A stretch of DNA of 64,000 nucleotides from a virus (lineage: Duplodnaviria; Caudoviricetes). Below the pieces are notes generated by a model, which worked only from the letters and a program-made list of their open reading frames with translations, did not search any database and was not told where the DNA came from. The translations under genes were made by a program, and so were the position numbers. The first letter of the stretch is position 1; every line of letters begins with the position of its first letter. Shown here piece after piece: positions 4,737 through 51,838 of the stretch. The stretch covers positions 6,857-70,856 of IMG/VR virus record IMGVR_UViG_2873180057_000001; one strand, written 5' to 3'.

Positions 4737-4737
4737 C

Positions 4738-5754: not shown

Positions 5755-6617
5755 TCGATGGGAAACGGGTCGTTGCGTGGACGCCCTATGGCAGGCGCCG
5801 GACCTACAGCATTCTGATCAAGTACCTGCAGCGGGACGTCGAGCGTGGCCTGGTCGACGAGGTATGGGCGTACATGAACACCGACCCTCGCGGCCAGGAG
5901 GACGACATCGCCTACGCGCACGAGCTCGCTGAGGAGCACGACTGGTTCCGGCTCGTGCACCGGCCGGAAGGCGTCAGCCTCGGGCGGCTGCCGAAGCAGC
6001 GCTACACCGGGCTCGCCTACCGGTACATGACCGATCCCGACACGGTGTACGTCCGCCTCGACGACGACGTCGTCTACATCCACGAGGACGCCATCGAGCA
6101 CCTGCTGCGGGCCCGCATCGAGATGCCCGCCCCGGTCGCCGTGTTCCCGATCATCATCAACAACGCGATCTGCAGCCACTTCCTGCAGTTGTGCGGGAAG
6201 ATCCCCATGGAGTGGGGCGAGGTGAAGCCGTACTGCATGGACCCCACCGGGTGGGCCAACGGCCCATTCGCTGTGCGCCTGCACGAGTTGCTGCTCAGCC
6301 ACATCGAGGCGGGCACGGTCGAGGATCTGTACCTGTACCAGGACTTCCCGCTGGCCCCGGGTACGCAGTTCTCCGTGTCCTGTTTTGCGTCCCGCGGCGA
6401 GGACTACGCGGCGCTCCCCCGGCCCGGCGTCCTTGTGCCCGACGAGGAAGAGTCGTGGCACACGATCCATCAGCCCGCGGCGAGGGGCGTGCCGAACATC
6501 TTGCGCGGCAACGTGGTGGTCAGCCACTGGTCGTTCTTCCCTCAGCATCCGTTCCTCAATGCGACCGACCTCCTGGACCGGTACCGGCAGGCCGCAGAGA
6601 AGGCGGTGACGGCATGA
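5751..6617 (+). CDS. putative glycosyltransferase, GT-A-like (DxD)
   Basis: N-terminal TPYGRR, YVRLDDDVVYI motif, late HWSF motif; coupled to GT4 by ATGA overlap. Confidence 0.65.
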   Translation: MIDGKRVVAWTPYGRRRTYSILIKYLQRDVERGLVDEVWAYMNTDPRGQEDDIAYAHELAEEHDWFRLVHRPEGVSLGRLPKQRYTGLAYRYMTDPDTVYVRLDDDVVYIHEDAIEHLLRARIEMPAPVAVFPIIINNAICSHFLQLCGKIPMEWGEVKPYCMDPTGWANGPFAVRLHELLLSHIEAGTVEDLYLYQDFPLAPGTQFSVSCFASRGEDYAALPRPGVLVPDEEESWHTIHQPAARGVPNILRGNVVVSHWSFFPQHPFLNATDLLDRYRQAAEKAVTA

Positions 6618-24134: not shown

Positions 24135-25709
24135 TCAAAGGTAGCTTGCGCTAGATGCCTTCGGGATGGCCTTCTTCTCAGGTCGCAGGAAGCGCAGGAC
24201 CGGGTTGCCGACCGCGTCGACTAGGTCGTCGTTGAGCCCGTTCGGGAACGCACACATCTGCTCCTCAAGGGCGGGCAGCTGACCCGCGTGAACCACCCGG
24301 GACGGCAGCAACTGGTACAGGTTCAGCAGCCTGCCGGCGCGGGACTCCTTCGGCTCCGAGTTGGAGAACGTCACGACACGGACTGGCAGCCCGTGCAGCA
24401 CTTCGTGCCAGAGGTCGCCCCCCTGGTTCGATTCGACGAGGATGGCGCCGATCTCCGGATAAGAGTCGAGCAGTTGCTGGACGCGATCCCGCAGCGCCTT
24501 GCCCTTCAGCTTCACTGCCTCGGCGTGCTCGACGAGGCAGCGGGCTGGTATCGCACGAGCGCCTTCATGCGCCGGGCGGGCGGGGGCGCAGCCGACGACT
24601 GCCAAGCCGGTGAAGTCCGACGTCTTCTTCGTGGTGACGGCGCCGTCGACAGACAGGTAGGTGCGGGCGACGGGGAAGCGCCCATAGGTGAAGTCATCCT
24701 CCGTCCAGTAGTCAGAGTCCGCACTGGAGGGCTGGTTCAGGAAGTTGAGCTTAAAGCTCCTGGTCGCCCTCACCTGCGCCATGTAGGTCATGGGCCACTT
24801 AGCGGGCCAGATCGAGCGCTCCCCCTCTTCGCTCTTGACGATCGGCTCGTAGTAGTGGACACGGAACCGCTCTTCCTTGATCCACGCGGCGGGCTCTTCC
24901 TTGGTCGTGACGCTCTTCACGCACTGATGGATGAGCCCGCCGGCCATCGTCGTCGTCCCGGCAACGACGACCCGCGCGAACTCTGACAAGGGAAGGATCA
25001 CGTTCTGCAGGGTGGAGAGTCGCTTCTTCGCCTGGTGGACCGAGTAGTTCGCCTCGCCGCTCTCGATATCGTCCGCGATCAGCACGTCCGGGCGCTGCCG
25101 CCCCACCTTGAGGCCAAGGTTTCCCGAATCGATCCCACGCGCCGCAAAGGTGAACCCGTTGGCCATCTGGATCTGCGACTGCCGATCGGCGACGACACTG
25201 CCCCGTGGTCGGGTGGCTGGTGACGTGAGTTCGGGGAAGTCCTCCCGAAGCAGCCGGTTGCCGTCCAGTTCGGCTTTGAACGTGGCCAGATGCGTCTCCG
25301 CCTGCGAGGCGCTGTCGCTGAACGCGGCCACGAAGTGCACGAACCCGTGAGCAGCGGCCCACATAGGAATGATCAGAAACCACCAGGTGCTCTTGGCGGA
25401 CTCTCGCGGACTGATGAACACGTCGCGCGCTGAACGCGGTTCGGCGACTGGCCGCACCCATCGGCGCGCCCTGCGGGCCCAGTCCAGATGACAGTCGGCG
25501 AATGTGACCTTCTCACCAGTCTGCTTGCCCTTCATATGATGCGGCAGGTACAGCAGCCCGAACATGAGCGGATCAAGGCGCGTCAGCACCTTCCGGCCTT
25601 CACTCGACGCAAGGAGGCGGACATCGACGTCTGCGAGGTATCGATGCAGGTCAAACGTTGCTGAGTTATGCGGTTCGCCCGTCGCCGGGTCATGGAGATA
25701 GGGGATCAC
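24135..25709 (-). CDS. terminase large subunit
   Basis: PRESAKST Walker A, RPDVLIADDIE Walker B, GTT motif, ESNQGG and DDLVDA nuclease motifs. Confidence 0.93.
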   Translation of the reverse strand: MIPYLHDPATGEPHNSATFDLHRYLADVDVRLLASSEGRKVLTRLDPLMFGLLYLPHHMKGKQTGEKVTFADCHLDWARRARRWVRPVAEPRSARDVFISPRESAKSTWWFLIIPMWAAAHGFVHFVAAFSDSASQAETHLATFKAELDGNRLLREDFPELTSPATRPRGSVVADRQSQIQMANGFTFAARGIDSGNLGLKVGRQRPDVLIADDIESGEANYSVHQAKKRLSTLQNVILPLSEFARVVVAGTTTMAGGLIHQCVKSVTTKEEPAAWIKEERFRVHYYEPIVKSEEGERSIWPAKWPMTYMAQVRATRSFKLNFLNQPSSADSDYWTEDDFTYGRFPVARTYLSVDGAVTTKKTSDFTGLAVVGCAPARPAHEGARAIPARCLVEHAEAVKLKGKALRDRVQQLLDSYPEIGAILVESNQGGDLWHEVLHGLPVRVVTFSNSEPKESRAGRLLNLYQLLPSRVVHAGQLPALEEQMCAFPNGLNDDLVDAVGNPVLRFLRPEKKAIPKASSASYL

Positions 25710-26114: not shown

Positions 26115-26719
26115 TCCGCACCACCGTCGACGATCTGCTGCTCCTCCAGCTGCACGCGGGCTCTGGCGTCGCGGATCATCTCCTGCAGTTCCAGGTCCTG
26201 CTGGGTGGTTTCGGTGACCTGCGCGTCGACCTTTACGGGCATGTCGAGGCCGAGGAGACGGCGGCGGGACTCGGAGTTGCGCTGGCGGGCGTCCTCGACC
26301 TTGATGAGGCGGTCGATGGCGGCGAGGACCGGGCTGTCGTCGGGCAGCGGTGCGCCGTCGTGCACGATGATCCGCCCGTTGTTCACGGTGATGTGCTCGC
26401 GCGCGAGGACTTCCCTTGCCGCGTCCTCGAGGCCTTTCAGCCGCTCGAGGGCGGCTTCGAGGCGGGCGAGTTCGATGGCCCGGTACTCGTCTACCTTCGG
26501 GTCGACGCGGCGTGCGGCTTCTTCGCGGATCATTTCCTTGGCGGTGGTGACGCTGACGCGGTGTCCGCCGGTGGGCCCGTCGGGCTTGCGGCTGAGGTCG
26601 TCGATCTCGCGAAGGCTGAGGCCCTGGATCTTCAGGTCGAAGACGACTGCGGCGTGTTCGGCGCGCAGGGCGGGGTTCCGCTTGTTGTAGGGGGTTGGTC
26701 CGAGGCCCATGCCGCTCAC
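26111..26719 (-). CDS. terminase small subunit (HTH)
   Basis: GLSLREI HTH, ELARLE, AIDRLIK..RRRLLGLDMP; first gene of the packaging operon. Confidence 0.75.
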   Translation of the reverse strand: MSGMGLGPTPYNKRNPALRAEHAAVVFDLKIQGLSLREIDDLSRKPDGPTGGHRVSVTTAKEMIREEAARRVDPKVDEYRAIELARLEAALERLKGLEDAAREVLAREHITVNNGRIIVHDGAPLPDDSPVLAAIDRLIKVEDARQRNSESRRRLLGLDMPVKVDAQVTETTQQDLELQEMIRDARARVQLEEQQIVDGGAE

Positions 26720-26858
26720 TCCTTGACCGACGATTCCGAAGAATCACACCGCCATCACCTTTGAATCGTAGGCCATCCTCGGTGAAGAGTCGCTTATCCC
26801 CTACCGATACAGCGACAGAGGGAGCACGATGGAAGACAACCGCACGCCAGGAGGACCC

Positions 26859-27023
26859 GTGGCGAAGATCGGATTCAAGAAGCTCAAGGCTCAACTCGCC
26901 GCCAAGGGCGCCCGCAGCCCCGGCGGCCTCGCCTACAAGATCGGTGTCAAGAAGTACGGCAAGAAGACCATGGCCAAGAAAGCCGCCGCAGGGCGCCGCC
27001 GAGCCGCGCGCAAAGGCCGCTGA
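26859..27023 (+). CDS. small highly basic protein (54 aa)
   Basis: AGGAGG SD plus GTG; K/R/A-rich with no acidic residues. Confidence 0.7.
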   Translation: MAKIGFKKLKAQLAAKGARSPGGLAYKIGVKKYGKKTMAKKAAAGRRRAARKGR

Positions 27024-27024
27024 C

Positions 27025-27225
27025 ATGGTGTCCGACCGCGGCGGACGCTACGGCTACCGCGCGCTACGCCGTCGCCCAAGCGGTGGTCGCGTCTTGCCGC
27101 ACCGTCCTGACGGCTCAGCCCCGGTCGTGCTCAGTCCCGGGGGCCCGATCACCGACCCCGACGAGGCAGAAGCGTTGGGCCTGACTGCTGACGCCAGACG
27201 GATGCGCGAGGAGCCCACCGCATGA
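27025..27225 (+). CDS. hypothetical protein
   Basis: ATG 1 nt after previous stop; ends at a hairpin. Confidence 0.45.
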   Translation: MVSDRGGRYGYRALRRRPSGGRVLPHRPDGSAPVVLSPGGPITDPDEAEALGLTADARRMREEPTA

Positions 27226-27229
27226 CGAA

Positions 27230-27258
27230 GGCCCCGCCCGGAATCACTAGGCGGGGCC
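27230..27258. terminator. hairpin between convergent genes
   Basis: GGCCCCGCC-N11-GGCGGGGCC. Confidence 0.6.
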
Positions 27259-27287
27259 GCTCCGCGCGTGCACAGGCGGACCTGGCC

Positions 27288-27833
27288 TCACTGCCCCTGA
27301 GCCGTAATGTCGGTGATTTTCACAGACACCTTCACTCCTGCCGACGCCGTACTGATCGTCGACTCGGTGTAGTTGAGACTCGTCCGATCCGACAACTCGG
27401 CCGTCTCAATGACGGGACCGGACTCGTCGCCAGAGATCTCGTAAGTGATCTCGTACACCGCGCCAGGATCAAGGTCCTCACTCAGCCCGTCATAACTCAA
27501 GCGCGGCTCCACCGTCACGTTGCAGCCTGCCGAGCCGAAGCACTGCCGCTCCGTTGTGCGCAGCGTCATGGTGAAGCTGCTGGTGTCCGGCACCGTGTAC
27601 GTCGGCTCCGAGTCCGGTTCTTCTGCGGCTGCTGTCACCGCGTCCTTACCCGGGGGGCTCGACGCGGGGGTGGTCGCCTTACTGTCGTCCCTGGATTCCA
27701 CGACGACGATCCCGGTCGCTACGACTGCGGCAATGACGGCTGCTGCGGCGGCGATGATGACCGTGTTAGTTCGGGTCCTTCGTGGTGCCGATGGAGGCCC
27801 GTCAGGCATGGGTGGTGGCGTGCCGTCTGTCAT
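27288..27833 (-). CDS. membrane-anchored extracytoplasmic protein
   Basis: P-rich N-terminus, one TM helix, S/T-rich domain with QCFGSAGC. Confidence 0.75.
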   Translation of the reverse strand: MTDGTPPPMPDGPPSAPRRTRTNTVIIAAAAAVIAAVVATGIVVVESRDDSKATTPASSPPGKDAVTAAAEEPDSEPTYTVPDTSSFTMTLRTTERQCFGSAGCNVTVEPRLSYDGLSEDLDPGAVYEITYEISGDESGPVIETAELSDRTSLNYTESTISTASAGVKVSVKITDITAQGQ

Positions 27834-27975
27834 GGTTTCCCCCCGGGGACGGTGTGAGCCCCGGAGCGTAGCGGCGCAGCCGGTGTGATCGGGCGGGAAT
27901 GCGAGAAGGCTTCACCGCAAGGAGTGCTGTGGTCCTCGGCTCCCCCGCCTCGCCGCGCCCTGTGCGGTCACAGAA

Positions 27976-28003
27976 GCGCCCCGGCACGGATCTGCCGGGG
28001 CGC
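27976..28003 (-). terminator. terminator closing the leftward transfer operon
   Basis: GCGCCCCGGCA/TGCCGGGGCGC 11-bp stem followed by TTCTGT on the minus strand. Confidence 0.65.
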
Positions 28004-28036
28004 GCTGACGTGAGGTTGGCGGGGGCCGCCAGGGCG

Positions 28037-28246
28037 TCAGTTCTCCGTTTCACGCGGGCGGGGCTGGCTGGTGGCGTAGGTGACGGCGGCGAGTCCGCCT
28101 CCGAGTGTGGCGGCCATGGCGAGGCCGGTGGCCGTGGTGTTGACGCCCGCGCTGGTCAGGCCGACAGCGACACCGGCGGTCGTGAGCGTGGCGAGCGCGC
28201 CCTTGGCGGCGGATGCTCGGGCGCGGCGGGCGAGGTCGTGGTTCAT
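28037..28246 (-). CDS. small membrane protein (Spd-like)
   Basis: AGGAG SD; two hydrophobic segments; last gene of the traB-like operon. Confidence 0.6.
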   Translation of the reverse strand: MNHDLARRARASAAKGALATLTTAGVAVGLTSAGVNTTATGLAMAATLGGGLAAVTYATSQPRPRETEN

Positions 28247-28256
28247 TGCGGGTCTC

Positions 28257-29078: not shown

Positions 29079-29294
29079 CTACCGTCCGTGCGCCCTGGAG
29101 GTGAGCTTGAGATCGTCGATGCTGCCGACGATCTCGTTGTCGCAGAGTTGGTGACAGCCTCCGCATTCACCGGTGACGGTCATGACCATCAGCCCCTGGT
29201 TGCGCTTGCCTTTCAGTGACTGGAAGGTGTTGGTGACGGATACGAACCCGGATCCGCAGCCCCGCGGGCAGACGAGCGCTGGCTGCACGGCCAT
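29079..29294 (-). CDS. small zinc-ribbon protein
   Basis: CPRGC and CGGC pairs; TGATG coupling. Confidence 0.6.
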   Translation of the reverse strand: MAVQPALVCPRGCGSGFVSVTNTFQSLKGKRNQGLMVMTVTGECGGCHQLCDNEIVGSIDDLKLTSRAHGR

Positions 29295-30073
29295 CAGTTG
29301 GCCGCCCTCGCATCCGTCTTGGCTTTGCCGGTGCCATTACAGATGCCGCAGACGACGGTTCTCTGCTCGCCGCCGAACGCGGAGTACAAGGCGCCGTCTG
29401 TGCACCAGCGGCACAGGCCGAGGCGGGTGGCTTTGGCTGGTGAGGGCGGCTTGTTCTGCTTCTCCCAGGCGGTGTCGCTCATCGCCTTGCTGGTGTTGGT
29501 CTTGGTGACAGGTGCCGCCGCGGGCGTGGACTTAGTGGCTGTTCCGGCGGTGGGTTTAGCGACTTGGGCGTACCAGGTGCCGCCGACCGTCTTCCCGCCG
29601 TGCTTCTGCTTTTCGTGGCCGCGCAGGGCCTTGGTGGCCTCCTTCGCGTCACGGAAGCGCGGCTTCTGCTTCCAGCCGCAGGGGCAGGAGCAGCCGACGA
29701 GGCCGGATCGTTTCTCGGCGCCGAACCGGGATGCCTTGTACACGGCCCACTTGGAGACGCGGGCCTTGGTGGGGGTGGCGGGGCAGGGCTTGGAGCCGGA
29801 GAAGCTGCCGTCCTTGCGCTTGGTGAAGATCTGTCCGTTGCCGCCGCAGGTGGTGCAGCCTTGGTGGGTGGCTCGGAGGATCGCGGCGTCCTTGCGGGAG
29901 CGGACCCCGTCCTTGTGGAGGTCGAGGTGGTCGACGGCCCGGATCAGGGCCCAGGCGGTGAACCGGGCGTGCAGGGGGCCGTTGCGGGGGACGCGGGGGC
30001 GGCGGGCGCGGGTGACGGCCTTACGGCGGCGCGCGGTGGTGCGTTTCCGGGTGGTCGGCTTCCTGGTGGCCAT
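29294..30073 (-). CDS. basic multi-zinc-finger protein (DnaJ-type CxxCxGxG)
   Basis: CTTCGGNG, CPCGW..H...H, CRWC..G, CGICNGTG; AGGAG SD. Confidence 0.75.
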   Translation of the reverse strand: MATRKPTTRKRTTARRRKAVTRARRPRVPRNGPLHARFTAWALIRAVDHLDLHKDGVRSRKDAAILRATHQGCTTCGGNGQIFTKRKDGSFSGSKPCPATPTKARVSKWAVYKASRFGAEKRSGLVGCSCPCGWKQKPRFRDAKEATKALRGHEKQKHGGKTVGGTWYAQVAKPTAGTATKSTPAAAPVTKTNTSKAMSDTAWEKQNKPPSPAKATRLGLCRWCTDGALYSAFGGEQRTVVCGICNGTGKAKTDARAAN

Positions 30074-30118
30074 GGTCTGGGTCTCCTGGTCGGTCGATCA
30101 TTTTGCGACGGTTTGCGA

Positions 30119-30275
30119 GGTGCTCGGCAGGTGCTCGCGGGTGCTCCGCTGCAGGTCAGAGCTGCTCGGGGCGCTGCTCGGCGGGTGCTCGGCGATCTTG
30201 GCGAGCAGTGGGGCGAGCACTTGGTCGAGCGGCTCTGAGCTGCGGGCGAGCAGCACCGAGCACCTTGCGAGCAGT
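30119..30275. repeat. clt-like array of 8-bp repeats (candidate TraB recognition sequences)
   Basis: G(G/C)TGCTC(G/C) at 30119, 30130, 30140, 30161, 30173, 30184; inverted CGAGCA(C/G)N at 30202, 30214, 30247, 30257, 30268 plus degenerate copies at 30226 and 30236; intergenic, directly downstream of traB. Confidence 0.8.
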
Positions 30276-30282
30276 TCACTTT

Positions 30283-32313
30283 TCAGGTCAAAGCGGTCAG
30301 CGCTTCGAGCTTGTAGCCGCGAGGGTTCCTCAACCCGTCGATGTCACCGATGGGGACCGGCGCCCCCACGCCGACGTCCCGGAAGGTCTTGCGCAGCGCG
30401 GCCACCGTCAGTCCGCCGTAGGCGTCGGGGTCGAACCTGGCGAGAGCTTCGGTCAGCGGCTCGGGCCGGATGCGCTCCACGCCGGCGTCGGCCATCACCT
30501 CGATGGCGTCGGCCACGATCTGCTGGTCTCCCGAGAGCGCGGCACTCCCGCCGTCCGCAAGGTGCAGCAGGCCAGCTGCGGCGAGGGTGTCGCGGTCGAA
30601 CCAGGGGCGGCCCGCGGCCTGCCGGTCGGCGACGGCCTGCTTGATGCCGTCCCGGCTGTGCTCGTTCCACCCGTACAGCAGGGGCCGCTCCAGGCCGGGG
30701 CCCTTGATGTAGGACTGGCCGGCGTCGTTCTTGATCTGCTTGTTCTGTGCGGGCACGAGCCGGTCGGGGCGGAAGCCCTTCGCTGCAGCGCCCTGTCCGA
30801 GGACGATGCGGATGTCATCCCACCGCGACGCGAGCATGATCCGCAGGGTGAAGGAATCCGCGATCGCGTCACCCATGGCGTCCGAGGTGGCGTCCTGCCC
30901 GGCGGCGACCGGGTAGATCCCGGACTGCTTCGCCAGCCGCAGCAGCTCGATGAACAACTCCTTCGCCCGGAGGCTGAGGTAGATGAACTCGTCGATGAAC
31001 GGGAAGATCGCCGGGTGCTTGCGGGTCGCAACCCAGGTGTCGCCCATGTTCAGCCGGTTCCGCACAATATTGCGGCCCTTGGCCATCTTCACCAGGTGCT
31101 CGAGCCACTGCTCACACGCCTTGTTCCCGCGGATCGGTGGCACCGCCATCACGCCTTCGAACTCGCGCAGCCCGTCCTTGACCGGGTCCATGTCGAGCGC
31201 AATGGCGTTGTGGCAGGCCGTGACGACCTCGGCGAGGTCGCGCAGCACACCGGTCGTCTTCGCGGCGCCGGACACGCCGATCACCAGGATCCGCAGGCCC
31301 TCGAGGACGAGGTCGAGCGAGGTGGCGTCCATGCAGCGGCCGAAGTTGTGCGCGTCGGTGATGTCCAGGCTGTCCGGGGCGTGCACGACCGGCCTGGCCA
31401 TGTCCTCGAACGGGTTCCCGGTGACCAGGCGCAGCGCCAGGTGCGCGGACGCCGACGGGTCGGGGTCGATGAGGGTGCCGCCCTGCTTGATGTCGAAGTG
31501 CGCGTCCAGTTGGTCGGCGGCGGCGTTGACCTTGCCGACGGTGGCGCCCTTGAGGACGACGTCGATCTCCCAGAACTTGCCGCGGAATCCGAGCGCCCGC
31601 ACCGCGCGGGTACCGATGCCCTCCGCGGCCAGCGCCCGGGAGACGCACTCCTCGACCTGGCCGTGCGACTGGCACATGGCCAGCGGGAACGGCTCATCCG
31701 AATCGGGATCGTCCTGTTCGGCGATGTATGCCTCAGGGGCGATGTCGGGCCGGTTGAGCCGGTAGCGGCCGTAGGCGGTGACTGCGGTCCCGGCGATGAG
31801 GCCGGTGCCGGTGGGCGGGATCGCCATGGACACTCCGGTCGGGTCCATGCCTCCGGCGGTGGTCAGCGCGATCCAGCCGCTGAGGTTCAGCGCGCCAGTA
31901 ATGCCGGCCGCCCAGCCGAGGAGCTTCCACCGGCGGTGGCGCAGGTCGTCGTTGCGGCGCCAGTCCGCCGAGGAGGTGATGCCGCCGATGTTCTCCTGGT
32001 AGTCGTGCGAGCGCACATACCGCCAGCCGAGGTAGGCGACGGCTTTGGCGCCGTGCCCGAACCAGCGGCCGAGCGTGCCGCTGGTTCGGGCGGTCAGGCC
32101 GACGGCCCGGCCCGTGACGGCCGCGGCCACCATGGCGGCGGAGCCGACCTTGTGCAGCGCCGGGGTGCCGGGCTCGTACACCTCGACGACACCGGGCGCG
32201 ATGTCGTCCTCGTCGTCGTAGCCTTCGAGGCTGTCGGGCACGACAACCTCCCCCGGCACGATCTTGTCCAGGTCCCAGTCCGCGGGCAGCCCGCGGTTCA
32301 TCTCGGTCGTCAT
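30283..32313 (-). CDS. traB: FtsK/SpoIIIE-family conjugative DNA translocase (TraB-like)
   Basis: Two N-terminal TM segments, Walker A GVSGAAKT, DPVK, Walker B FPFIDE, AGQ motif, C-terminal wHTH-like domain ending NPRGY. Confidence 0.8.
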   Translation of the reverse strand: MTTEMNRGLPADWDLDKIVPGEVVVPDSLEGYDDEDDIAPGVVEVYEPGTPALHKVGSAAMVAAAVTGRAVGLTARTSGTLGRWFGHGAKAVAYLGWRYVRSHDYQENIGGITSSADWRRNDDLRHRRWKLLGWAAGITGALNLSGWIALTTAGGMDPTGVSMAIPPTGTGLIAGTAVTAYGRYRLNRPDIAPEAYIAEQDDPDSDEPFPLAMCQSHGQVEECVSRALAAEGIGTRAVRALGFRGKFWEIDVVLKGATVGKVNAAADQLDAHFDIKQGGTLIDPDPSASAHLALRLVTGNPFEDMARPVVHAPDSLDITDAHNFGRCMDATSLDLVLEGLRILVIGVSGAAKTTGVLRDLAEVVTACHNAIALDMDPVKDGLREFEGVMAVPPIRGNKACEQWLEHLVKMAKGRNIVRNRLNMGDTWVATRKHPAIFPFIDEFIYLSLRAKELFIELLRLAKQSGIYPVAAGQDATSDAMGDAIADSFTLRIMLASRWDDIRIVLGQGAAAKGFRPDRLVPAQNKQIKNDAGQSYIKGPGLERPLLYGWNEHSRDGIKQAVADRQAAGRPWFDRDTLAAAGLLHLADGGSAALSGDQQIVADAIEVMADAGVERIRPEPLTEALARFDPDAYGGLTVAALRKTFRDVGVGAPVPIGDIDGLRNPRGYKLEALTALT

Positions 32314-33653
32314 CACTGGTCCTTCTTGCGCGAGTTGCGGGCGGCGATGGAGGCCTGCTTGCGAGCCCCGGAAACGTAGGGCGCGGTGTCGCCCTTGGCG
32401 CGCACACCGCGACGAGCGGGCGGGTTGTAGACGCGCGGCTTGTTGGGCCCGAGCACTTGCGATGCCGCCTGCGCGGATGATCCGGTTACGGGTCGCTTCT
32501 CGCGGGCTGCTGAGACCCTCGCTTCGGCGGCGTTGCGCATGCGGAGAACGTCTGCTGATTCGCCGGGCGGGGCGCCCTCGACGTCGAGCTTGGCGCGCTT
32601 CCAGATCGCCTCGGTGACTGTCGTCTCGCCGAGGTCCGCAGCCAGTCGGAGTGCGTGAGCCCACACCTTCGGGAACTGCGTCGCGCGCGTATCGGCGAGC
32701 TGCGCTACAGCCTCCTTGGCTGCCTCGTCCGCGGCTTCCTTCTCGGCCCGGCGGCGGGCGTCCTCGTCGGCCTTGCGCTTCGCCTCAGCCTTCGCGGCCT
32801 TCTCCTGCGCCTTCCGTTCGCGGCGGGTGAGGGCACCGTCGCGCTTGCGGATCCGGCCGTGCTCGTGCAGATCCCACACACCGGGGCCGGCGACGGACGC
32901 GAACGCGGTCGCGATGGCGGTGCCCGGGTCGAACGCGTGGAGGCCGTGGTACAGGTTGACGCCCGCGGCGACGAAGGCGAGGAACCAAACGATGGTGCGG
33001 TAGTGCCACACTGGCCGCTTGCTCACGGCAGCGGCGCGGGCCCCGCGGTGCACGACCCAGGCCGCGCCTTCGAGCATCACCGGTGTGGCCGCCATCCACG
33101 GGGCGCGCGGGTTCCAGAAGAACGACATCTGCACGGGCAGTGACACGATGCCGCACACAATCGCGAACTTGATCGCATAGGACCGCCACTTGTCGTCAGC
33201 TTCGCTGACCTCTGCGGCAGTCCTGGCTTCCGACGCCTTCTGCTCCTGCGCCTGACGGTCGGCTTCCAGCCGGGCGCGTTCAATTTCGTCGCGCTTGCGG
33301 TTGAGTTCGGCGACGCGCGCCCGACTGGCGGCCTGGTCTTCGGCGGCTCGCCGCTCGGCCTTGTCGTTGGCCAGTCGCAGCTTGCGGGCTTCCTCTGCGG
33401 CCTTGATCTCTGCGGCCTTCGCTTCTGCTTCAGCTGTGATCCGCTTTGCTTCGGCGTCGGCCCAGGCCTTGGCTCGGATCGCTTCGGCCTGCGCTTCGGC
33501 CACCGCATCCGGGATGTCGACGGCGGCCGGTTCAGGGGTGCGCTGCTCCTCGACGAGCTCGGGATCGCGCTGGTCCGTGATGGGCCGCCAGTCCCCGAAC
33601 ACGGGCATGGTCGGCCTCCGGTGGCCGTTCATCAGGGGCGGGCTGGCGGTCAT
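32313..33653 (-). CDS. coiled-coil multi-TM protein (SpdB/DUF2637-like)
   Basis: Long A/E/K/R coiled coil, four TM helices, second coiled coil; TGATG-coupled to traB. Confidence 0.7.
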   Translation of the reverse strand: MTASPPLMNGHRRPTMPVFGDWRPITDQRDPELVEEQRTPEPAAVDIPDAVAEAQAEAIRAKAWADAEAKRITAEAEAKAAEIKAAEEARKLRLANDKAERRAAEDQAASRARVAELNRKRDEIERARLEADRQAQEQKASEARTAAEVSEADDKWRSYAIKFAIVCGIVSLPVQMSFFWNPRAPWMAATPVMLEGAAWVVHRGARAAAVSKRPVWHYRTIVWFLAFVAAGVNLYHGLHAFDPGTAIATAFASVAGPGVWDLHEHGRIRKRDGALTRRERKAQEKAAKAEAKRKADEDARRRAEKEAADEAAKEAVAQLADTRATQFPKVWAHALRLAADLGETTVTEAIWKRAKLDVEGAPPGESADVLRMRNAAEARVSAAREKRPVTGSSAQAASQVLGPNKPRVYNPPARRGVRAKGDTAPYVSGARKQASIAARNSRKKDQ

Positions 33654-37338: not shown

Positions 37339-37974
37339 GTGGATGTCACCCAGTGGACCGGACGGCACGCGTGCTGGCTGCAGGACGCGTTCGAGGACAG
37401 CCAGGAGGAGTTCGCTGCGCGCCTCGGTGTCTCCGTGCGCAGCGTCGCCTCCTGGCACCAGTCGCCGGACATGGTCCCCAAACTGGAGACGCGACGGATC
37501 TTGAACACGGCTTACGGGAGGGCAGGTGATGCGGTGCGGCGACTGTTCATCCACCACGCGCGCAGGCACAGCGAGCAAGTCCAGGCGCAGGCTCTACGCG
37601 TGGCGATCGCTGTCGTCCGCCGTAACGACGAGGTGCTCCTGGTCTGCCGCCAGGACGGCGACGAGATCAGCTGGCAGTTCCCGGCTGGCATCGTGAAGCC
37701 GGGCGGCTCGCCCGCGAAGGTCGCGGTCCGCGAGACGCTCGACGAAACAGGCGTCCACTGCTCCGTCCGCGAGCACCTGGGTGAGCGCCTACATCCTGTG
37801 ACCAGGGCCTATTGCGACTACTACGCCTGCGACTGGTTGCACGGCGAGGCAGTCAACGGCGATGAATCAGAGAACGCCGCTGTGGCCTGGGCCCCGATAA
37901 AGGATCTTGCCCGCTACATCCCGACCGGCCGCATCTACCCACCGATCCTGAACGCCTTGGAGGCAACCGTATGA
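37339..37974 (+). CDS. XRE-HTH fused to Nudix domain
   Basis: SQEEFAARLGVSVRSVASW HTH; degenerate Nudix box GIVKPGGSPAKVAVRETLDETGV. Confidence 0.85.
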   Translation: MDVTQWTGRHACWLQDAFEDSQEEFAARLGVSVRSVASWHQSPDMVPKLETRRILNTAYGRAGDAVRRLFIHHARRHSEQVQAQALRVAIAVVRRNDEVLLVCRQDGDEISWQFPAGIVKPGGSPAKVAVRETLDETGVHCSVREHLGERLHPVTRAYCDYYACDWLHGEAVNGDESENAAVAWAPIKDLARYIPTGRIYPPILNALEATV

Positions 37975-38387
37975 GCGAGACGATCACTGAGAAGCCGGGC
38001 ATCTCCGCCGCGATCATCGTCCAGGACGGCAAGGTGCTCATGGTCCGCCGGGCCGTAAAGGAGGGCGAGCTGATGTGGCAGTTCCCCGCGGGCGCCATCG
38101 AGGACGGCGAGACCGCCGAGCAGGCCGCCGTGCGAGAGGCGCAGGAAGAGACCGGACTGACCGTTAAGTCGATCACGCTGCTCGGTGAGCGCATTCACCC
38201 GAAGACCGGTCGGCTCATGTCGTACACGGCGGCCAAGGTGCTCTCCGGCGAGGCGCACGTGGCCGACGACGAAGAGCTAGATGCGGTCGCCTGGGTATCG
38301 CATCACGAGATCAGCAAGTACGTACCCTACGGGCTATTCGAGCCCGTGCAGGAGTACCTCGACGATGTCCTGCCACAGGGGGCTTAG
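37971..38387 (+). CDS. Nudix hydrolase
   Basis: Intact Nudix box GAIEDGETAEQAAVREAQEETGL. Confidence 0.9.
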   Translation: MSETITEKPGISAAIIVQDGKVLMVRRAVKEGELMWQFPAGAIEDGETAEQAAVREAQEETGLTVKSITLLGERIHPKTGRLMSYTAAKVLSGEAHVADDEELDAVAWVSHHEISKYVPYGLFEPVQEYLDDVLPQGA

Positions 38388-48945: not shown

Positions 48946-50301
48946 TCAGGTCTGGGCCATATCGACGAATCGGGCAAAGTGCCCCTGAAAAGCGACGGTG
49001 ATCGTCGCGGTGGGGCCGTTGCGGTGCTTGGCGACGATGAAGTCGGCCTCGCCGGCCCGCGGCGATTCCCTCTCGTAGGCGTCTTCGCGGTGCAGGAGGA
49101 TCGCGATGTCGGCGTCCTGCTCGAGGGATCCGGATTCGCGGAGGTCGGCGAGCATCGGCTTCTTGTCCTGGCGCTGTTCGGGTCCGCGGTTGAGCTGAGA
49201 GAGGGCGACGACGGGGATCTCGAGGTCCATGGCGAGCTTCTTGAGGCCGCGGCTGATCCGGCTGACTTCCTGCTGTCGGTTGTCGTTGCGACCCATGGAT
49301 TCGCCGCTCATCAGCTGCAGGTAGTCGATGACGACGAGGCCGAGTCCGCGCTGGCGCTGGATGCGGCGGCAGTGTGCGCGGATCTTGGCGAGGGTGATGC
49401 CGGTGTCGGCGACGATATGCAGCGGTGAGGACTGCATGTCCTTGCCCGCGGTGGCGAGGTCCAGGAGCTTGGCGTCTTCGAGGGGGCCCTTGGTCTTCAT
49501 CCAGTGCAGCGGGTAGCTGGCCTGCGCGGACAGGAACCGTTTCTGGAGTTCTTTGCGGCCCATCTCGAGGGAGAAGAACAGGGTCGGAATGTCGTTGCGG
49601 ATGGCGGCGTAGCGGGCGAAGTCGCTGGCGAGGACGGACTTGCCCATGGCGGGACGCGCCGCGATGATCACGAACTGGCCCGCTTGGAGCCCGCCGGTGA
49701 GGGCGTCGAAGTCGAGGAAGCCGGTAAGGAGGCCGACCTTGGGGCCGTTCTCGCGGATGTCGACGACTTCGGCGACGGTGTCCATGATGTCCACGCCGAT
49801 GGACAGGTCGGTGTCGCCGGTGTCGGTGAGCGTGCTCAGGCCCTCGAGGGTGTCGTAGGCGCCCTGGATGATCTCGTCGGGGCTGTGTTCGCGGCGGTGG
49901 ACGCTCTGCGTCATGCCGATGCCAGCGAAGAGGATCTTCCGGAGGACGGCTTTCTCACGGACGATCTCGGCGTGCGCGCGGGTGCCGCCGACGCTGTTGT
50001 AGGCGTTGGGGAGATCGAAGACGTAGATCCTGCCGCCGCACCGTTCGAGGTCACCGGCCTTCTCGAGCCGGTCGCTGAGGGAGATCGGGTCGTGCGCGGC
50101 GCCTTCGGTGTGGAGCTCGACGAGAGCGCGGTAGATCGTCTCGTGCTGGGGGCGGTAGAAATGTTTGGGCTCGACGACTTCGACGGCTTCGTCGATCGCG
50201 TTACTGGATTGGATCATGGCGCTGAGCAGGGCGCGCTCGGCGGCAAGATCGAACGGCGGCAGCTTCTCGCCGTCAGCAGGGTCCTCGTCGTAGTCGTTCA
50301 T
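48946..50301 (-). CDS. dnaB: replicative DNA helicase
   Basis: AARPAMGKS, FSLEM, IDYLQLM, LSQLNR, DLRESGSLEQDAD, AKHRNGPT. Confidence 0.96.
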   Translation of the reverse strand: MNDYDEDPADGEKLPPFDLAAERALLSAMIQSSNAIDEAVEVVEPKHFYRPQHETIYRALVELHTEGAAHDPISLSDRLEKAGDLERCGGRIYVFDLPNAYNSVGGTRAHAEIVREKAVLRKILFAGIGMTQSVHRREHSPDEIIQGAYDTLEGLSTLTDTGDTDLSIGVDIMDTVAEVVDIRENGPKVGLLTGFLDFDALTGGLQAGQFVIIAARPAMGKSVLASDFARYAAIRNDIPTLFFSLEMGRKELQKRFLSAQASYPLHWMKTKGPLEDAKLLDLATAGKDMQSSPLHIVADTGITLAKIRAHCRRIQRQRGLGLVVIDYLQLMSGESMGRNDNRQQEVSRISRGLKKLAMDLEIPVVALSQLNRGPEQRQDKKPMLADLRESGSLEQDADIAILLHREDAYERESPRAGEADFIVAKHRNGPTATITVAFQGHFARFVDMAQT

Positions 50302-50882
50302 GCGTTCTTCCTGAAGTCGGCGCCGGTGAAGGGCACGAACATGGAGCCGCCATCGGCGAAGCGGGACTGGGTGCGGGCGCCGAGCGGTTCGAGCGTCGGC
50401 AGGTTGGTGGAGATCAGCGTGGGCAGCTGGTTCTGCCAGCGGATGTCGATGACCTGGGCGATGGCGTCGACGGTCCACGGGTACAGCTGGGTGGCGCCGA
50501 GGTCGTCCAGGGCGAGCAGGTCCGCGTCGCGCCAGGCCTGCAGCTTGTCGAGATCGACAGGCCGGTCGGCGGCGGCTTTGAACTCGAAGTCGGAGACGAG
50601 GTAGTAGCGGCCGAACCAGCCACGGCGGATCAGCAGTTCGCCGATCTTCCACAGGTGCCAGGTCTTGCCGGTGCCGGGTTCGCCGAGCAGCAGCAGCGAG
50701 GCGCGGGAGCCGGCGAGGAAGCCGCTGATCCACTGGTCGACTTCCGGGCGGACCTCGCCGCCGACGGCGAATGCCCTGGGGCGGCGGGCGAGGTAGCGGT
50801 CGAGGGTCTGGGTGCGGATCTCGGCGCGCGCTGCGGCGCGTTCGGCGTCGTAGCGGGCACGCCGGTCGGCGGCGTTGGTCAT
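50298..50882 (-). CDS. DnaC/IstB-like helicase loader ATPase
   Basis: GEPGTGKT, LALDDLG, R.....PTLISTNL. Confidence 0.88.
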   Translation of the reverse strand: MTNAADRRARYDAERAAARAEIRTQTLDRYLARRPRAFAVGGEVRPEVDQWISGFLAGSRASLLLLGEPGTGKTWHLWKIGELLIRRGWFGRYYLVSDFEFKAAADRPVDLDKLQAWRDADLLALDDLGATQLYPWTVDAIAQVIDIRWQNQLPTLISTNLPTLEPLGARTQSRFADGGSMFVPFTGADFRKNA

Positions 50883-51838
50883 CCGAAGGGCCTCGCGTTC
50901 TTGTAGTCCTCGGTGGACGGCTGGGGTGCACCGGCGCCGGTGGCGGGGTGCGGGCGGTTGGGGCCTCCGGCGCCTGGCACGGAGCGGAGGTGGGGCCGGC
51001 CGCCGGCAGGGGTCTGAGGTTCGGGGTGGAGCTTTTCCCAGCGGCCGATCCAGGCGGTGACGCTGTCGGGCTCGCCGCGTGCGTGGGCGGCGTTGGCGGC
51101 GGAGCGGACCATGAGGTCGATTCCGAGGCGGTCGACCTGGATGCGGATGCGTTCCCAGTCGCTGTGCTTCTTGATGTCCCAGGCGACTGCTCCGAGGCCT
51201 GCTGTGGCGAGCGCTGCGGCGAGCGGCTGGAGTTTGTCGGGGAATCCGTCGGTGCGTGCTGCCTTGCCAGCAGCAGTACCTACGTAAGTAGGTACTGCTG
51301 GGGCGGGCTGGGACGCGCGCGCGCGTGTAGTCTCCGAGGAGTCCCCGGGGGACACAGCGTTTTGAGCTGGGTTTTTACCTGAAACTGGCGAAGAAAAACT
51401 GCCGAAAAACTTCTCTTTTTCTTCAGTTTTTCGCGCGGAATCCGAGCGTTTTTCTCCCCCGTTTCCCGGAGGAGGGCCTCCGGAAGGGCCTCCTCCGGCC
51501 CGCTGCTGACGCTTCTTCTCGGCCTCCCGCTCACGCTCGGCGAGGACCTTGGAGCGGCTCGGGTTGTAGAGCAGATAGTCGTGCATCACGTAGTCGCCGG
51601 GCCGCGGCTGCGGGCACTTCCGGCAGCCATGGCCCTGCTCGTGCCACAGGCCGACCTTCACCAGCTTGGCGATCTGCGTTTCGGTGCCATCAGCCGCGGT
51701 CTCGGCCGGGATGATCCCGTCGGTGAGATAGGCGGCCGCGTAGGAGCCACACATCACCCACAAGCCCACGGCGGCCTTGCCCGCACGACGCATCTTGGGA
51801 TGCGCGTGAGCGCTGTCATCGACCTTGAACCATGGCAT
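50879..51838 (-). CDS. replication initiator protein
   Basis: MPWFKVDD....HPK, GLW, TDG, LVKVGLW, HDYL.YNP; upstream of loader and helicase. Confidence 0.75.
   Translation of the reverse strand: MPWFKVDDSAHAHPKMRRAGKAAVGLWVMCGSYAAAYLTDGIIPAETAADGTETQIAKLVKVGLWHEQGHGCRKCPQPRPGDYVMHDYLLYNPSRSKVLAEREREAEKKRQQRAGGGPSGGPPPGNGGEKRSDSARKTEEKEKFFGSFSSPVSGKNPAQNAVSPGDSSETTRARASQPAPAVPTYVGTAAGKAARTDGFPDKLQPLAAALATAGLGAVAWDIKKHSDWERIRIQVDRLGIDLMVRSAANAAHARGEPDSVTAWIGRWEKLHPEPQTPAGGRPHLRSVPGAGGPNRPHPATGAGAPQPSTEDYKNARPFG
51271..51498. other. putative replication origin inside initiator gene
   Basis: Perfect 13-bp inverted repeat at 51271-51300, A/T tracts at about 51359-51453, second imperfect inverted repeat at 51466-51498. 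Confidence 0.55.

What the first reader, a model, noticed from the sequence alone, without database searches (positions are those of the whole stretch)
30119..30275. Helically phased, mirror-symmetric 8-mer array downstream of traB
Seen: six copies of G(G/C)TGCTC(G/C), then five good and two degenerate copies in inverted orientation, mostly 10-12 bp apart (one 21-bp gap), switching polarity near 30196 in non-coding DNA. Known: TraB wHTH domains bind 8-bp TRS repeats at clt loci next to traB, and FtsK uses polar KOPS 8-mers. Inference: this is the cognate loading site; the two-armed layout could load two oppositely oriented motors or extrude a cruciform.
Basis: partly seen in the sequence, partly recalled or inferred. 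Interest (0 to 1): 0.82.

Follow-up and report, generated by a model that had tools for sequence, protein, structure and literature searches.

The report
Prophage DNA-pump loading array
A prophage of a Streptomyces-like host carries, just behind its own FtsK-like DNA pump gene, twelve short repeats in two mirrored arms whose spelling changes together with the pump's DNA-binding tail, so they are most likely the site where that pump grips the phage DNA.

Summary
Window 30119-30275 has 6 + 6 copies of (G/C)TGCTCG / CGAGCA(G/C) at 10-12 bp steps, in a 209-bp non-coding gap. That is 10 six-letter cores in 160 bp, against at most 4 in 200 simulations.

The context is a tyrosine-integrase provirus with TerL, portal, HK97 capsid and tail genes, not a plasmid. 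The "traB" gene is a 677-aa protein with no Pfam hit. Its predicted fold is an FtsK motor plus a C-terminal winged helix.

All 39 homologous phage-type loci with enough downstream sequence have a two-armed array at the same place. The word differs between loci (TGCTCG, TGCTCA, CCCTCG, TGCTA, CCGTCT, CCGTCC, CCCGGCG) and changes in nearly all copies at once.

The word tracks only the last ~77 residues of the translocase. It needs 3 changes on the tail tree (the minimum), 8 on the motor tree and 9 on the downstream-gene tree. AU tests reject one clade for the TGCTCA group on the motor and on the downstream gene.

pFP1-type Streptomyces plasmids carry the same module.

Best reading, about 0.75: a clt/KOPS-like recognition array for the phage's own translocase. 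Binding, and whether the pump moves the phage genome between hyphae, were not tested. I class it as a new variant of a known kind.

The parts
30283..32316 (-). FtsK/TraB-like dsDNA translocase gene, 677 aa counted from the M of MTTEMNR. Two moderately hydrophobic N-terminal segments (residues 57-75 and 132-150). Walker A GVSGAAKT at residue 347 and Walker B FIDEF at 440. C-terminal winged helix at residues ~596-676.
   Evidence: phrog_12531 'FtsK/SpoIIIE-like' E 2.7e-64. No Pfam or NCBIfam hit. AF2 pLDDT 92.8, and the Foldseek top hits are FtsK motor domains 2iut/2ius/6t8b at E~1e-17. Hydrophobicity and Walker motifs.
30283..30516 (-). [quoted passage not shown] This is the only part of the syntenic block that covaries with the repeat word. 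The discriminating residues are 616, 655 and 656.
30202..30275 (-). Arm proximal to the translocase gene: six words that read (C/G)(T/C)GCTCG in the direction of the gene (sites 1-6). On the + strand they appear as CGAGCA/CGAGCG at 30202, 30214, 30226, 30247, 30257 and 30268.
30119..30191 (-). Arm distal to the translocase gene: six inverted words (sites 7-12 in gene direction). On the + strand they appear as G(G/C)TGCTC(G/C) at 30119, 30130, 30140, 30161, 30173 and 30184. The copy at 30140 (site 10, GGAGCAC in gene direction) does not change in the TGCTCA and CCCTCG groups.
30151..30158 (+). GCAGGTCA, a second conserved element inside the 21-bp gap of the distal arm. Its columns are 97% identical over 26 loci. 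It is also present next to the arrays of distant phage homologues and of pFP1-type plasmids.
30236..30243 (+). TGAGCTGC, the inverted partner of the GCAGGTCA element. It has one mismatch in this window; relatives have TGACCTGC.
30096..30118 (-). Conserved tail of the intergenic region: two direct TCGCAAA copies in gene direction (consensus of relatives CACAAACCnnCACAAACCGATCA), followed by the GGAG ribosome-binding site of the next gene.
29294..30073 (-). Downstream gene, 259 aa, with a very basic N-terminus and CxxCxGxG zinc-ribbon-like motifs. It is conserved behind the array in all homologous loci with a complete flank but does not covary with the word.

Best explanation
The array is the cognate cis-acting recognition (loading) site of the prophage's own FtsK/TraB-like dsDNA translocase. 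Each 7-8-bp word would be bound by the winged-helix tail at the C-terminus of one translocase subunit. Phasing at about 11 bp puts successive words on one face of the helix, so several tails of an oligomer can bind together. The two inverted arms present the sites in opposite polarity, so motors could be loaded in both orientations. A second, invariant element (GCAGGTCA / TGACCTGC) marks each arm.

Shown here: the array itself, its conservation, the concerted change of the word, its exclusive covariation with the tail, the FtsK-motor fold, and the same module in Streptomyces plasmids.

Inferred, not tested: binding itself, oligomer loading, direction of pumping, and the biological role. Candidate roles are movement of excised or replicating phage dsDNA between hyphae or compartments, as TraB does for plasmids, or segregation of that DNA.
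For: (1) All 39 phage-type homologous loci with at least 200 bp downstream have a two-armed, roughly 11-bp phased array that starts within about 10 bp of the stop codon. These are 27 close loci and 12 distant ones; L006 is cut by the contig end after 75 bp and L049 is a fragment.

(2) Within the 16 TGCTCG loci, word columns are 96.3% identical and spacer columns 81.1%.

(3) The word changes in concert. 11 of 12 sites read TGCTCA in all 6 loci of that group, and 11 of 12 read C/TCCTC in L012.

(4) Columns that split the TGCTCG loci (16) from the TGCTCA loci (6) without exception: 0 of 102 in the upstream 98-aa protein, 0 of 510 in the upstream 446-aa protein, 0 of 333 in the downstream protein, and 3 of 696 in the translocase. 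All three lie in the last 62 residues: 616 I/M; 655 P or S versus T (Q in the TGCTA group); 656 I/L.

(5) The four word groups need 3 changes, the minimum, on the tree of residues 601-677 (0 of 200 label shuffles as low). They need 8 on residues 1-600 (28 of 200) and 9 on the downstream protein (114 of 200). The AU test rejects the TGCTCA group as one clade on residues 1-600 (p 0.008) and on the downstream protein (p 1e-12).

(6) Distant relatives follow the same rule. Tails with QVRGW or QQRGW go with CCGTCT/AGACG (L032, L034, L047, L048, L067, L068). RVRGW goes with CCGTCC/GGACG (L052, L069). YLRGW goes with CCCGGCG (L050, L051, L054, L070).

(7) In plasmid CP042280.1 only the tail is homologous (residues 589-675, 50% identity, P-type). 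It is followed by a CTGCTCG/CGAGCA array with GCAGGTCA.

(8) The tail model (pLDDT 88) has winged-helix topology. Residues 616, 655 and 656 lie in strand beta1 and the wing strand. All the best structural matches are winged-helix DNA-binding domains, though weak: Foldseek E 0.1, VIA Z 5-6.2.

(9) The motor matches solved FtsK motors at E~1e-17.

(10) Precedent in print, passages read. clt loci hold direct 8-bp repeats recognised by the cognate TraB (PMC4447253, introduction). The pWTY27 clt overlaps the 3' end of traA, and TraA footprints on its 7-bp repeats (PMC3583192).
Against: No binding or transfer experiment exists for this family.

The tail and the array are only 8 bp apart, so linkage alone favours their co-inheritance. 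The downstream gene starts about 45 bp from the other end of the array and does not covary, but linkage is not formally excluded.

Only 3 independent sister pairs rest on well-supported branches (3 of 3 in the same direction, sign test p 0.25).

The winged-helix assignment rests on weak structural scores.

Site 10 does not covary, and neither does the GCAGGTCA element, so at least one other factor or function is involved.

Streptomyces phage Jay2Jay has a homologue at 31% identity with no array behind the gene. Two of 8 plasmid homologues have none either.

There is no genome-wide polarity of the word that switches at the array: 18 forward / 18 reverse on the left, 35 / 21 on the right.
Confidence: 0.75

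Rival explanations
1. The array is an operator or promoter region for the downstream gene, possibly the start of the late region. It would be bound by a transcription regulator encoded elsewhere in the phage, or by the translocase tail acting as an autoregulator. The repeats would then control expression rather than load a motor.
For: The array fills the gap directly upstream of the 259-aa gene and its ribosome-binding site. Phased direct and inverted repeats are typical of cooperative repressors. Site 10 and the GCAGGTCA element stay constant while the word changes, as parts of a promoter might.
Against: No sigma-70-like promoter or terminator is found in 29900-30500. The word covaries with the translocase tail and with none of the three other proteins tested in the block. 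Regulators encoded further away were not tested. Twelve sites over 155 bp is large for an operator.
Confidence: 0.1
2. The array acts as a nucleic-acid structure. It would be either a long interrupted hairpin in the mRNA (a processing, stability or termination signal) or a cruciform in DNA. The concerted changes in both arms would then be compensatory changes that keep the pairing.
For: The RNA fold gives -90.3 kcal/mol, z -6.1 against shuffles. RNAalifold finds 44 pairs, 19 of them with double changes. The central C/G of the GGTCASAGC element agrees between the arms in 20 of 26 loci. Mirror sites 4 and 9 switch together in L007 and L009.
Against: Pairing does not require the six words of one arm to be the same word or to change together, yet they do. 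Mirror-partner spacers are complementary at only 103 of 442 positions (23%), below the 43% of non-mirror controls. So only 6-7-bp helices separated by internal loops would form. There is no T-tract terminator and no Rfam family. The 10-12-bp phasing has no role in a hairpin.
Confidence: 0.06
3. The array is a set of iterons at a replication origin, or the terminase recognition site (pac/cosB) of the phage.
For: Phased short repeats in two orientations occur at origins and at small-terminase sites. The locus lies between the replication genes (DnaB at 48946-50931) and the packaging genes (TerL at 24135-25709).
Against: The array is 19 kb from DnaB and 4.4 kb, with several genes, upstream of TerL. 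The same module occurs in pFP1-type plasmids, which have no terminase. The covariation is with the translocase tail.
Confidence: 0.05

Closest known systems
clt loci and TraB (Tra) translocases of Streptomyces conjugative plasmids and AICEs (pSVH1, pJV1, pIJ101, pWTY27)
   Same: In both cases a membrane-associated FtsK-like dsDNA pump has a C-terminal winged helix. A cis site of repeated 7-9-bp words with inverted repeats lies at or just behind the 3' end of the gene. Specificity differs between elements. These points come from passages read in PMC4447253, PMC3583192 and PMC3218068. The G(C/A)AAC direct repeats reported for the pIJ101 clt (PMC3583192, discussion) recall the CAAAC pair at the end of this array.
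   Different: Here the host element is a tailed temperate phage. The protein has no PF01580 hit, and the classical small plasmids are not among the tblastn hits. The array is a regular mirror of 6 + 6 phased sites with an extra invariant GCAGGTCA element. The covarying residues lie in the wing and strand beta1, whereas helix alpha3 is named for pSVH1 TraB (PMC3583192, discussion passage). The supplements of these papers were closed and may hold sequence detail on clt sites that I could not compare.
FtsK gamma domain and KOPS; SpoIIIE and SRS
   Same: An FtsK-type motor (Foldseek E~1e-17) is guided by a winged-helix domain that reads polar 8-bp words. That KOPS and SRS work this way is recalled from general knowledge, not from a call.
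   Different: KOPS are scattered over a chromosome with skewed polarity. Here the words are packed into one array, with no polarity switch across the genome. The tail does not match the FtsK_gamma Pfam model. Some distant family members carry an FtsK_gamma domain at the N-terminus instead (P0025 and P0100).
pFP1-type Streptomyces plasmids (NC_006912.1, NZ_CP108056.1, CP108398.1)
   Same: The translocase is homologous (33% identity over the motor). It is followed by a 220-bp gap holding 4 + 4 inverted CTCTAC/GTAGAG words bracketed by GCAGGTCAGCGGC / GCCGCTGACCTGC. Then comes a basic protein with the same HxGCxxCxGxG motif.
   Different: The word and the number of sites differ, and the GCAGGTCA elements lie outside the arms. 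The context is a plasmid with DUF2637 (Spd-like) neighbours. I found no paper describing this array, but I ran no search aimed at pFP1 transfer.
Streptomyces plasmid-phage pZL12
   Same: It is a Streptomyces element that is both phage and plasmid and needs a tra gene for conjugal transfer. This is as cited in PMC3583192 and PMC4487206. The original paper, PMC2897331, is not held, so I know it only through these citations.
   Different: pZL12 is an extrachromosomal ParAB plasmid-prophage, whereas this element is an integrated provirus with a tyrosine integrase. I could not compare sequences.
FtsK-like DNA translocases of lytic Streptomyces phages (Jay2Jay, Samisti12 and relatives)
   Same: They are homologous over residues 86-577 at 30-32% identity in 89 phage records.
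   Different: In Jay2Jay, the only one of the 89 records inspected, there is no array behind the gene: the next gene overlaps the stop and no 7-mer occurs more than 3 times in any 250-bp window.

Membership tests
[quoted passage not shown] | Lies next to or overlapping the 3' end of the translocase gene of the same element | tested here: met
   The first word starts 8 bp after the stop codon in the window and in 26 colinear loci.
[quoted passage not shown] | Several copies of a 7-9-bp word, with direct and inverted repeats | tested here: met
   12 sites in the window, and arrays in 39 of 39 phage-type loci.
[quoted passage not shown] | The word is specifically bound by the C-terminal winged helix of the cognate translocase | not testable with these tools
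   The support is indirect: the word covaries only with residues 601-677.
[quoted passage not shown] | Required in cis for conjugal transfer or mobilisation | not testable with these tools
   This needs a mating assay.
TraB/Tra translocases of Streptomyces plasmids and AICEs | FtsK/SpoIIIE-type motor domain | tested here: met
   The AF2 model has pLDDT 92.8. Foldseek hits 2iut, 2ius and 6t8b at E 2e-17 to 1e-15, TM 0.60-0.70 normalised to the target. Walker A and B motifs are present.
TraB/Tra translocases of Streptomyces plasmids and AICEs | Match to Pfam FtsK_SpoIIIE (PF01580), the criterion used in AICE surveys (PMC3218068) | tested here: not met
   No Pfam family even at E<=5. Only distant family members reach it: P0100 at 26.3 bits, above the cut-off, and P0025 below it.
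TraB/Tra translocases of Streptomyces plasmids and AICEs | Sequence homology to an experimentally characterised TraB | tested here: inconclusive
   None of the 50 plasmid records hit at E<=10 has the size of the classical small plasmids, except weak hits in an 11.3-kb record (E 2e-3) and an 18-kb record (E 0.05). pWTY27 is not in the collection. No characterised TraB sequence was at hand.
TraB/Tra translocases of Streptomyces plasmids and AICEs | [quoted passage not shown] | tested here: met
   The topology is H-beta-H-H-wing at pLDDT 88. The top structural matches are all winged-helix domains, but weak: Foldseek E 0.1 and Z 5-6.2.
TraB/Tra translocases of Streptomyces plasmids and AICEs | N-terminal membrane association | tested here: inconclusive
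   There are two moderately hydrophobic 19-residue windows, at 57-75 and 132-150, with Kyte-Doolittle scores of 1.2-1.3. No dedicated predictor was run.
FtsK gamma / KOPS system | FtsK_gamma domain (PF09397) at the C-terminus | tested here: not met
   The 115-aa tail has no Pfam hit at E<=5.
FtsK gamma / KOPS system | Words dispersed over the replicon with polarity that switches at a defined point | tested here: not met
   Left of the array there are 18 forward and 18 reverse cores, right of it 35 and 21. In three host genomes phased triplets occur at background level outside the prophage.

The most novel reading that the evidence does not exclude
A family of temperate tailed phages of Streptomyces has taken up a plasmid-type dsDNA transfer module: translocase, mirror-symmetric clt and a basic zinc-ribbon protein. 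The excised or replicating phage genome could then be pumped from hypha to hypha, or across cross-walls, without virions. The two inverted arms would each load one hexamer, so both sides of the circular DNA are pumped in parallel from one entry point. The interchangeable tail-plus-array cassettes would form a natural specificity code (655 P/T/Q with ...TCG/...TCA/...TA; R or Q before VRGW with GGACG/AGACG) that keeps co-resident elements from using each other's pumps.
Probability: 0.3. Interest if true: 0.85.

Novelty: new variant of a known kind. Interest (0 to 1): 0.68.

Why it matters
How a ring-shaped pump recognises and threads a circular double-stranded plasmid during Streptomyces conjugation is still unsolved. 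This family offers a regular, mirror-symmetric loading site and a natural series of matched tail and word variants. At least seven words were seen, and they were exchanged repeatedly between lineages. That makes the recognition code and the two-motor idea testable with simple binding and swap experiments.

It also places a conjugation-type module inside integrated tailed phages. About 1.5% of sampled Streptomyces species genomes carry a close homologue (6 of 401). This blurs the line between phage and AICE.

The translocase escapes PF01580, the Pfam model used to find AICEs (PMC3218068), so such modules are probably under-counted.

Tried and rejected
Pfam and NCBIfam on the translocase and its neighbours gave nothing useful.

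phmmer against PDB sequences gave no hit at E<=1.

DNA similarity to plasmids and phages was negligible, apart from a 229-bp match to CP042280.1 that turned out to be the tail plus half the array.

The promoter and terminator scan found nothing. Rfam gave only chance-level rows.

There is no KOPS-like polarity.

Host-chromosome clt-like clusters are at background. Besides the prophage arrays there is 1 phased triplet in G002, 2 overlapping ones in G001 and 0 in G003, against 0-3 for the reversed-pattern control.

A one-to-one match of six sites to a hexamer is rejected as a general rule, because relatives have 2 to 6 sites per arm.

A long perfect cruciform is rejected on the spacer test.

Foldseek and VIA searches with the tail gave only generic winged-helix matches, and no FtsK gamma row was listed.

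The pZL12 paper is not held, and pWTY27 is not in the plasmid collection. Complex prediction was not used, because it scores protein-protein pairs only. Supplements of papers were closed, so clt sequence tables that may sit there were not seen.

The phrase 'TraB recognition sequence' found 0 papers. The search for Streptomyces + prophage + TraB + FtsK found 10 papers. Judging from titles and abstract starts, plus the passages of PMC3218068 that I read, none describes a prophage-borne array.

Full report
**1. The observation**

The + strand of window 30119-30275 holds six forward copies of G(G/C)TGCTC(G/C), at 30119, 30130, 30140, 30161, 30173 and 30184. It also holds six inverted copies, at 30202, 30214, 30226, 30247, 30257 and 30268.
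- Start-to-start spacing is 11, 10, 21, 12, 11, then 18 across the centre, then 12, 12, 21, 10, 11.
- Exact GSTGCTCG occurs 7 times here and 26 times in the other 63.8 kb.
- The 6-mer core occurs 10 times in 160 bp. The maximum was 4 in 200 Markov simulations and 3 anywhere else in the window.
- The stretch is a 209-bp non-coding gap on the - strand. It lies between the stop of a 677-aa gene (30283-32316) and the ATG (30073) of a 259-aa gene.

**2. The context is a phage**

The window is bases 6857-70856 of a 70,856-bp IMG/VR record classed as a provirus, with CheckV completeness 76%. It has no terminal repeats. The genes recognised are:
- a tyrosine integrase outside the window, at G000:C1:2205-2693;
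- an amidase endolysin, an epimerase and a glycosyltransferase, DnaB, a YqaJ exonuclease and HTH regulators;
- terminase large subunit (24135-25709), portal, scaffold, HK97 capsid, tape measure and minor tail;
- NUDIX and Ant-like proteins.

Nearly all genes run on the - strand, from the replication genes (40-64 kb) through the translocase region (30-36 kb) to the head and tail genes (8-26 kb). In 4 of 5 other IMG/VR records that carry the module, an HK97 capsid gene lies on the same record.

**3. The 'traB' gene**

The 677-aa protein has no Pfam or NCBIfam match, even at E<=5, and no sequence match in the PDB.
- It matches phrog_12531, 'FtsK/SpoIIIE-like', at E 2.7e-64.
- It matches the 'FtsK-like DNA translocase' of 89 lytic Streptomyces phage records at 30-32% identity.
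- It matches ORFs of 45 Streptomyces or Kitasatospora plasmids at 26-36% identity.
- The family is small: 167 cluster representatives at E<=1e-3 among 1.84 billion. Two distant members carry an N-terminal FtsK_gamma domain and weak PF01580 matches.
- An AF2 model of residues 190-677 (72-row alignment, pLDDT 92.8) matches solved FtsK motor domains first (2iut, 2ius, 6t8b; E 2e-17 to 1e-15), then TcpA and EccC.
- Walker A (GVSGAAKT, residue 347) and Walker B (FIDEF, residue 440) are present. Two N-terminal segments are moderately hydrophobic.
- Residues ~596-676 fold as helix, strand, helix, helix, wing, helix (pLDDT 88). The best structural matches are all winged-helix DNA-binding domains but weak: Foldseek E 0.1 and VIA Z 5-6.2.

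So the protein works like a TraB/FtsK-type pump by fold and architecture. By the sequence tests run here it is not a demonstrable member of the classical TraB family.

**4. Relatives**

I fetched homologous loci from genome contigs, IMG/VR, metagenomes and a 401-genome sample of Streptomyces species.
- I dropped duplicates: L011, L013, the L017-L028 copies of the loci already fetched as L007-L016 (L023 and L027 are new and were kept), L033, L038, L040, L042, L043, L046, L053 and L065.
- I also dropped the fragment L049 and the cut locus L006.
- That leaves 27 close loci (67-77% identity) and 12 distant loci (46-63%), each with at least 200 bp downstream.
- All 39 have a two-armed array that begins within about 10 bp of the stop codon and precedes a homologue of the basic 259-aa gene.
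- Six of the 401 sampled species genomes have a close homologue.

**5. Anatomy from the alignment of 26 close loci**

There are twelve sites at fixed offsets after the stop: 8, 19, 29, 50, 62, 74, then 90, 101, 113, 134, 144, 155.
- Within the 16 TGCTCG loci, word columns are 96.3% identical and spacers 81.1%.
- A second element occupies the long gap of each arm: GCAGGTCA(C/G)AGC and its inverse. Its columns are 97.1% identical over all 26 loci.
- The array ends in a conserved CACAAACCnnCACAAACCGATCA and the ribosome-binding site.
- The distant loci have 2-6 words per arm at a strict 11-bp period, and a single CGCAGG(T/C) at the switch of polarity.

**6. Concerted change of the word**

| Word (gene direction) | Loci |
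|---|---|
| (C/G)TGCTCG | 16 loci including the window |
| (C/G)TGCTCA | L005, L008, L010, L014, L029, L031, plus L066 |
| C(C/T)CCTCG | L012 |
| CTGCTA | L015, L041, L045 |
| CCGTCT(A) | L032, L034, L047, L048, L067, L068 |
| CCGTCC | L052, L069 |
| CCCGGCG | L050, L051, L054, L070 |

In the TGCTCA loci and in L012, 11 of 12 sites carry the new word. Site 10 (GGAGCAC) stays unchanged.

**7. Which protein follows the word?**

I looked for alignment columns that separate the 16 TGCTCG loci from the 6 TGCTCA loci without exception.

| Protein | Separating columns |
|---|---|
| Upstream 98-aa protein | 0 of 102 |
| Upstream 446-aa protein | 0 of 510 |
| Downstream 259-aa protein | 0 of 333 |
| Translocase | 3 of 696 |

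The three translocase columns are residues 616 (I/M), 655 (P or S versus T; Q in the TGCTA group) and 656 (I/L). L012 has N in place of the R of NPRGY.

The four word groups were named from the DNA before any tree was built. Their fit to the trees:

| Tree | Changes needed | Label shuffles as low |
|---|---|---|
| Translocase residues 601-677 | 3 (the minimum) | 0 of 200 |
| Translocase residues 1-600 | 8 | 28 of 200 |
| Downstream protein | 9 | 114 of 200 |

- On the motor tree, L002 (TGCTCG) and L010 (TGCTCA) are sisters at 98% support. L029 (TGCTCA) and L041 (TGCTA) are also sisters at 98%.
- The AU test rejects the TGCTCA group as one clade on residues 1-600 (p 0.008) and on the downstream protein (p 1e-12).
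- Only three independent pairs rest on starred branches. All three go the same way, but three pairs cannot reach significance.
- In the model, residues 616 and 655/656 lie in strand beta1 and the first wing strand, which form one sheet.
- In the distant loci, the residue two positions before RGW is Q where the word reads AGACG on the other strand, and R where it reads GGACG. YLRGW tails go with CCCGGCG.
- In plasmid CP042280.1 only the tail is homologous (50% identity over residues 589-675, PVPLGEIDGM type). The ORF upstream is in another frame and has no Walker A by my pattern. The tail is followed by a CTGCTCG/CGAGCA array with GCAGGTCA/TGACCTGC.

Tail and array thus travel as one cassette of about 400 bp that has been exchanged repeatedly.

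Caveat: the tail and the array are adjacent, so linkage contributes to this pattern. The downstream gene is almost as close to the array and is uncoupled from the word.

**8. The same module in plasmids**

In pFP1 (NC_006912.1), NZ_CP108056.1 and CP108398.1 the 'DNA translocase FtsK' gene is followed by a 220-bp gap. The gap holds GCAGGTCAGCGGC, four CTCTAC words, four GTAGAG words and GCCGCTGACCTGC. A basic protein follows that shares an HxGCxxCxGxG...C motif with the phage's 259-aa protein (28 residues, 39% identity). Upstream lie a DUF2637 protein and a zinc-binding protein.

Of the 8 plasmid loci inspected out of 45 hits:
- NZ_CP107962.1 has a GATCGGC/GCCGATC array followed by TGACCAGC.
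- Two further plasmids have irregular repeats with GGTGACCTGCG.
- Two have no array.

Phage Jay2Jay has no array behind its gene.

**9. Rival explanations**

- Structure. The RNA fold is strong (-90.3 kcal/mol, z -6.1), and RNAalifold pairs the words of the two arms. But pairing does not explain why all words of one arm are alike. Mirror-partner spacers are complementary at only 103 of 442 positions, against 487 of 1144 for non-mirror controls. Hints that the arms are kept alike remain unexplained: the C/G of the GGTCASAGC element agrees between arms in 20 of 26 loci, and sites 4 and 9 switch together in 2 of the 3 loci (L007, L009, not L039) where site 4 carries the variant.
- Operator. No promoter-like or terminator-like site was found. 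Regulators encoded elsewhere in the phage were not tested.
- Origin or pac site. The position and the plasmid occurrences speak against this.
- KOPS-like guidance over the whole genome. No polarity switch was found, and there is no excess of phased triplets in three host genomes.

**10. Comparison with what is in print**

- clt loci of Streptomyces plasmids hold direct 8-bp repeats recognised by the cognate TraB, a hexameric FtsK-like pump whose C-terminus reads clt (PMC4447253, passages).
- The 175-bp clt of pWTY27 overlaps the last 16 bp of traA, holds 7-bp direct repeats and inverted repeats, and is footprinted by TraA (PMC3583192, passages).
- pJV1 has nine 9-bp repeats, and pIJ101 has an inverted repeat plus G(C/A)AAC repeats (PMC3583192, passages).
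- pSVH1 TraB reads its 8-bp motif through helix alpha3 (PMC3583192, passages).
- AICE surveys find Tra by PF01580 (PMC3218068, passages). That criterion would miss this family.
- pZL12 is cited as a plasmid-phage whose transfer needs a tra gene. The paper itself is not held.
- My searches found no description of a prophage-borne, mirror-symmetric array or of its covariation with the tail. These searches cover open-access papers only, and supplements were closed.

**11. Verdict**

The feature is real, conserved and under selection. It is best read as the recognition array of the phage's own FtsK/TraB-like translocase (confidence about 0.75). It works like a clt, but membership in the classical TraB/clt family cannot be shown by sequence. 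I class it as a new variant of a known kind. The biological role in a tailed phage is open.

Noticed in passing
window 30151-30158 and 30236-30243; L057-L059, L063, L064, L071, L032-L070: GCAGGTCA / TGACCTGC stays invariant while the repeat word changes. It recurs beside the arrays of distant phage homologues (as a single CGCAGG(T/C) at the polarity switch) and of plasmids at about 33% protein identity. What reads it is unknown. In the window the 8-mer occurs 7 times, against 2.7 expected.
   Followed up: partly
L071 (CP042280.1 36806-42027), locus positions 642-2737: A winged-helix tail 50% identical to the window's, with a matching TGCTCG array, lies behind a 564-aa ORF in a different reading frame. 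That ORF has no Walker A by my pattern. This is either a frameshifted gene, a stand-alone tail protein, or a fusion to another motor.
   Followed up: partly
P0025, P0100: Distant members of the translocase family carry an FtsK_gamma domain at the N-terminus instead of the C-terminus.
   Followed up: no
P0094, P0109, P0133: These proteins of 691-795 aa match the query only over its last ~80-90 residues (39-52% identity). This suggests the tail domain is shuffled between different proteins.
   Followed up: no
window 26700-28250: About 1.5 kb between the 202-aa ORF upstream of TerL and the phrog_19266 gene shows weak third-position GC signal in every frame. It may be a non-coding or AT-richer stretch, and so a candidate place for cos/pac.
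   Followed up: no
window 3633-6617 (+ strand): An NAD-dependent epimerase, a group-1 glycosyltransferase and a third ORF lie on the opposite strand to the phage genes, between the lysis and tail genes. They look like a moron that could modify the host surface.
   Followed up: no
loci L048, L050, L052 versus the window: The translocase is only 47-58% identical, while the flanking 98-aa protein is 74-77% identical and the downstream protein 56-65%. The translocase evolves faster than its neighbours or is replaced more often.
   Followed up: partly
array spacers, 26 loci: Mirror-partner spacers are less complementary (23%) than non-mirror controls (43%), as if perfect palindromy were avoided.
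   Followed up: partly
G007:C1:27103-28140: The HK97 capsid match in one related IMG/VR record contains 2 in-frame TGA codons.
   Followed up: no
window 37339-38387 (+ strand): Two adjacent NUDIX hydrolase genes lie on the + strand, in the region between the translocase block and the replication genes.
   Followed up: no
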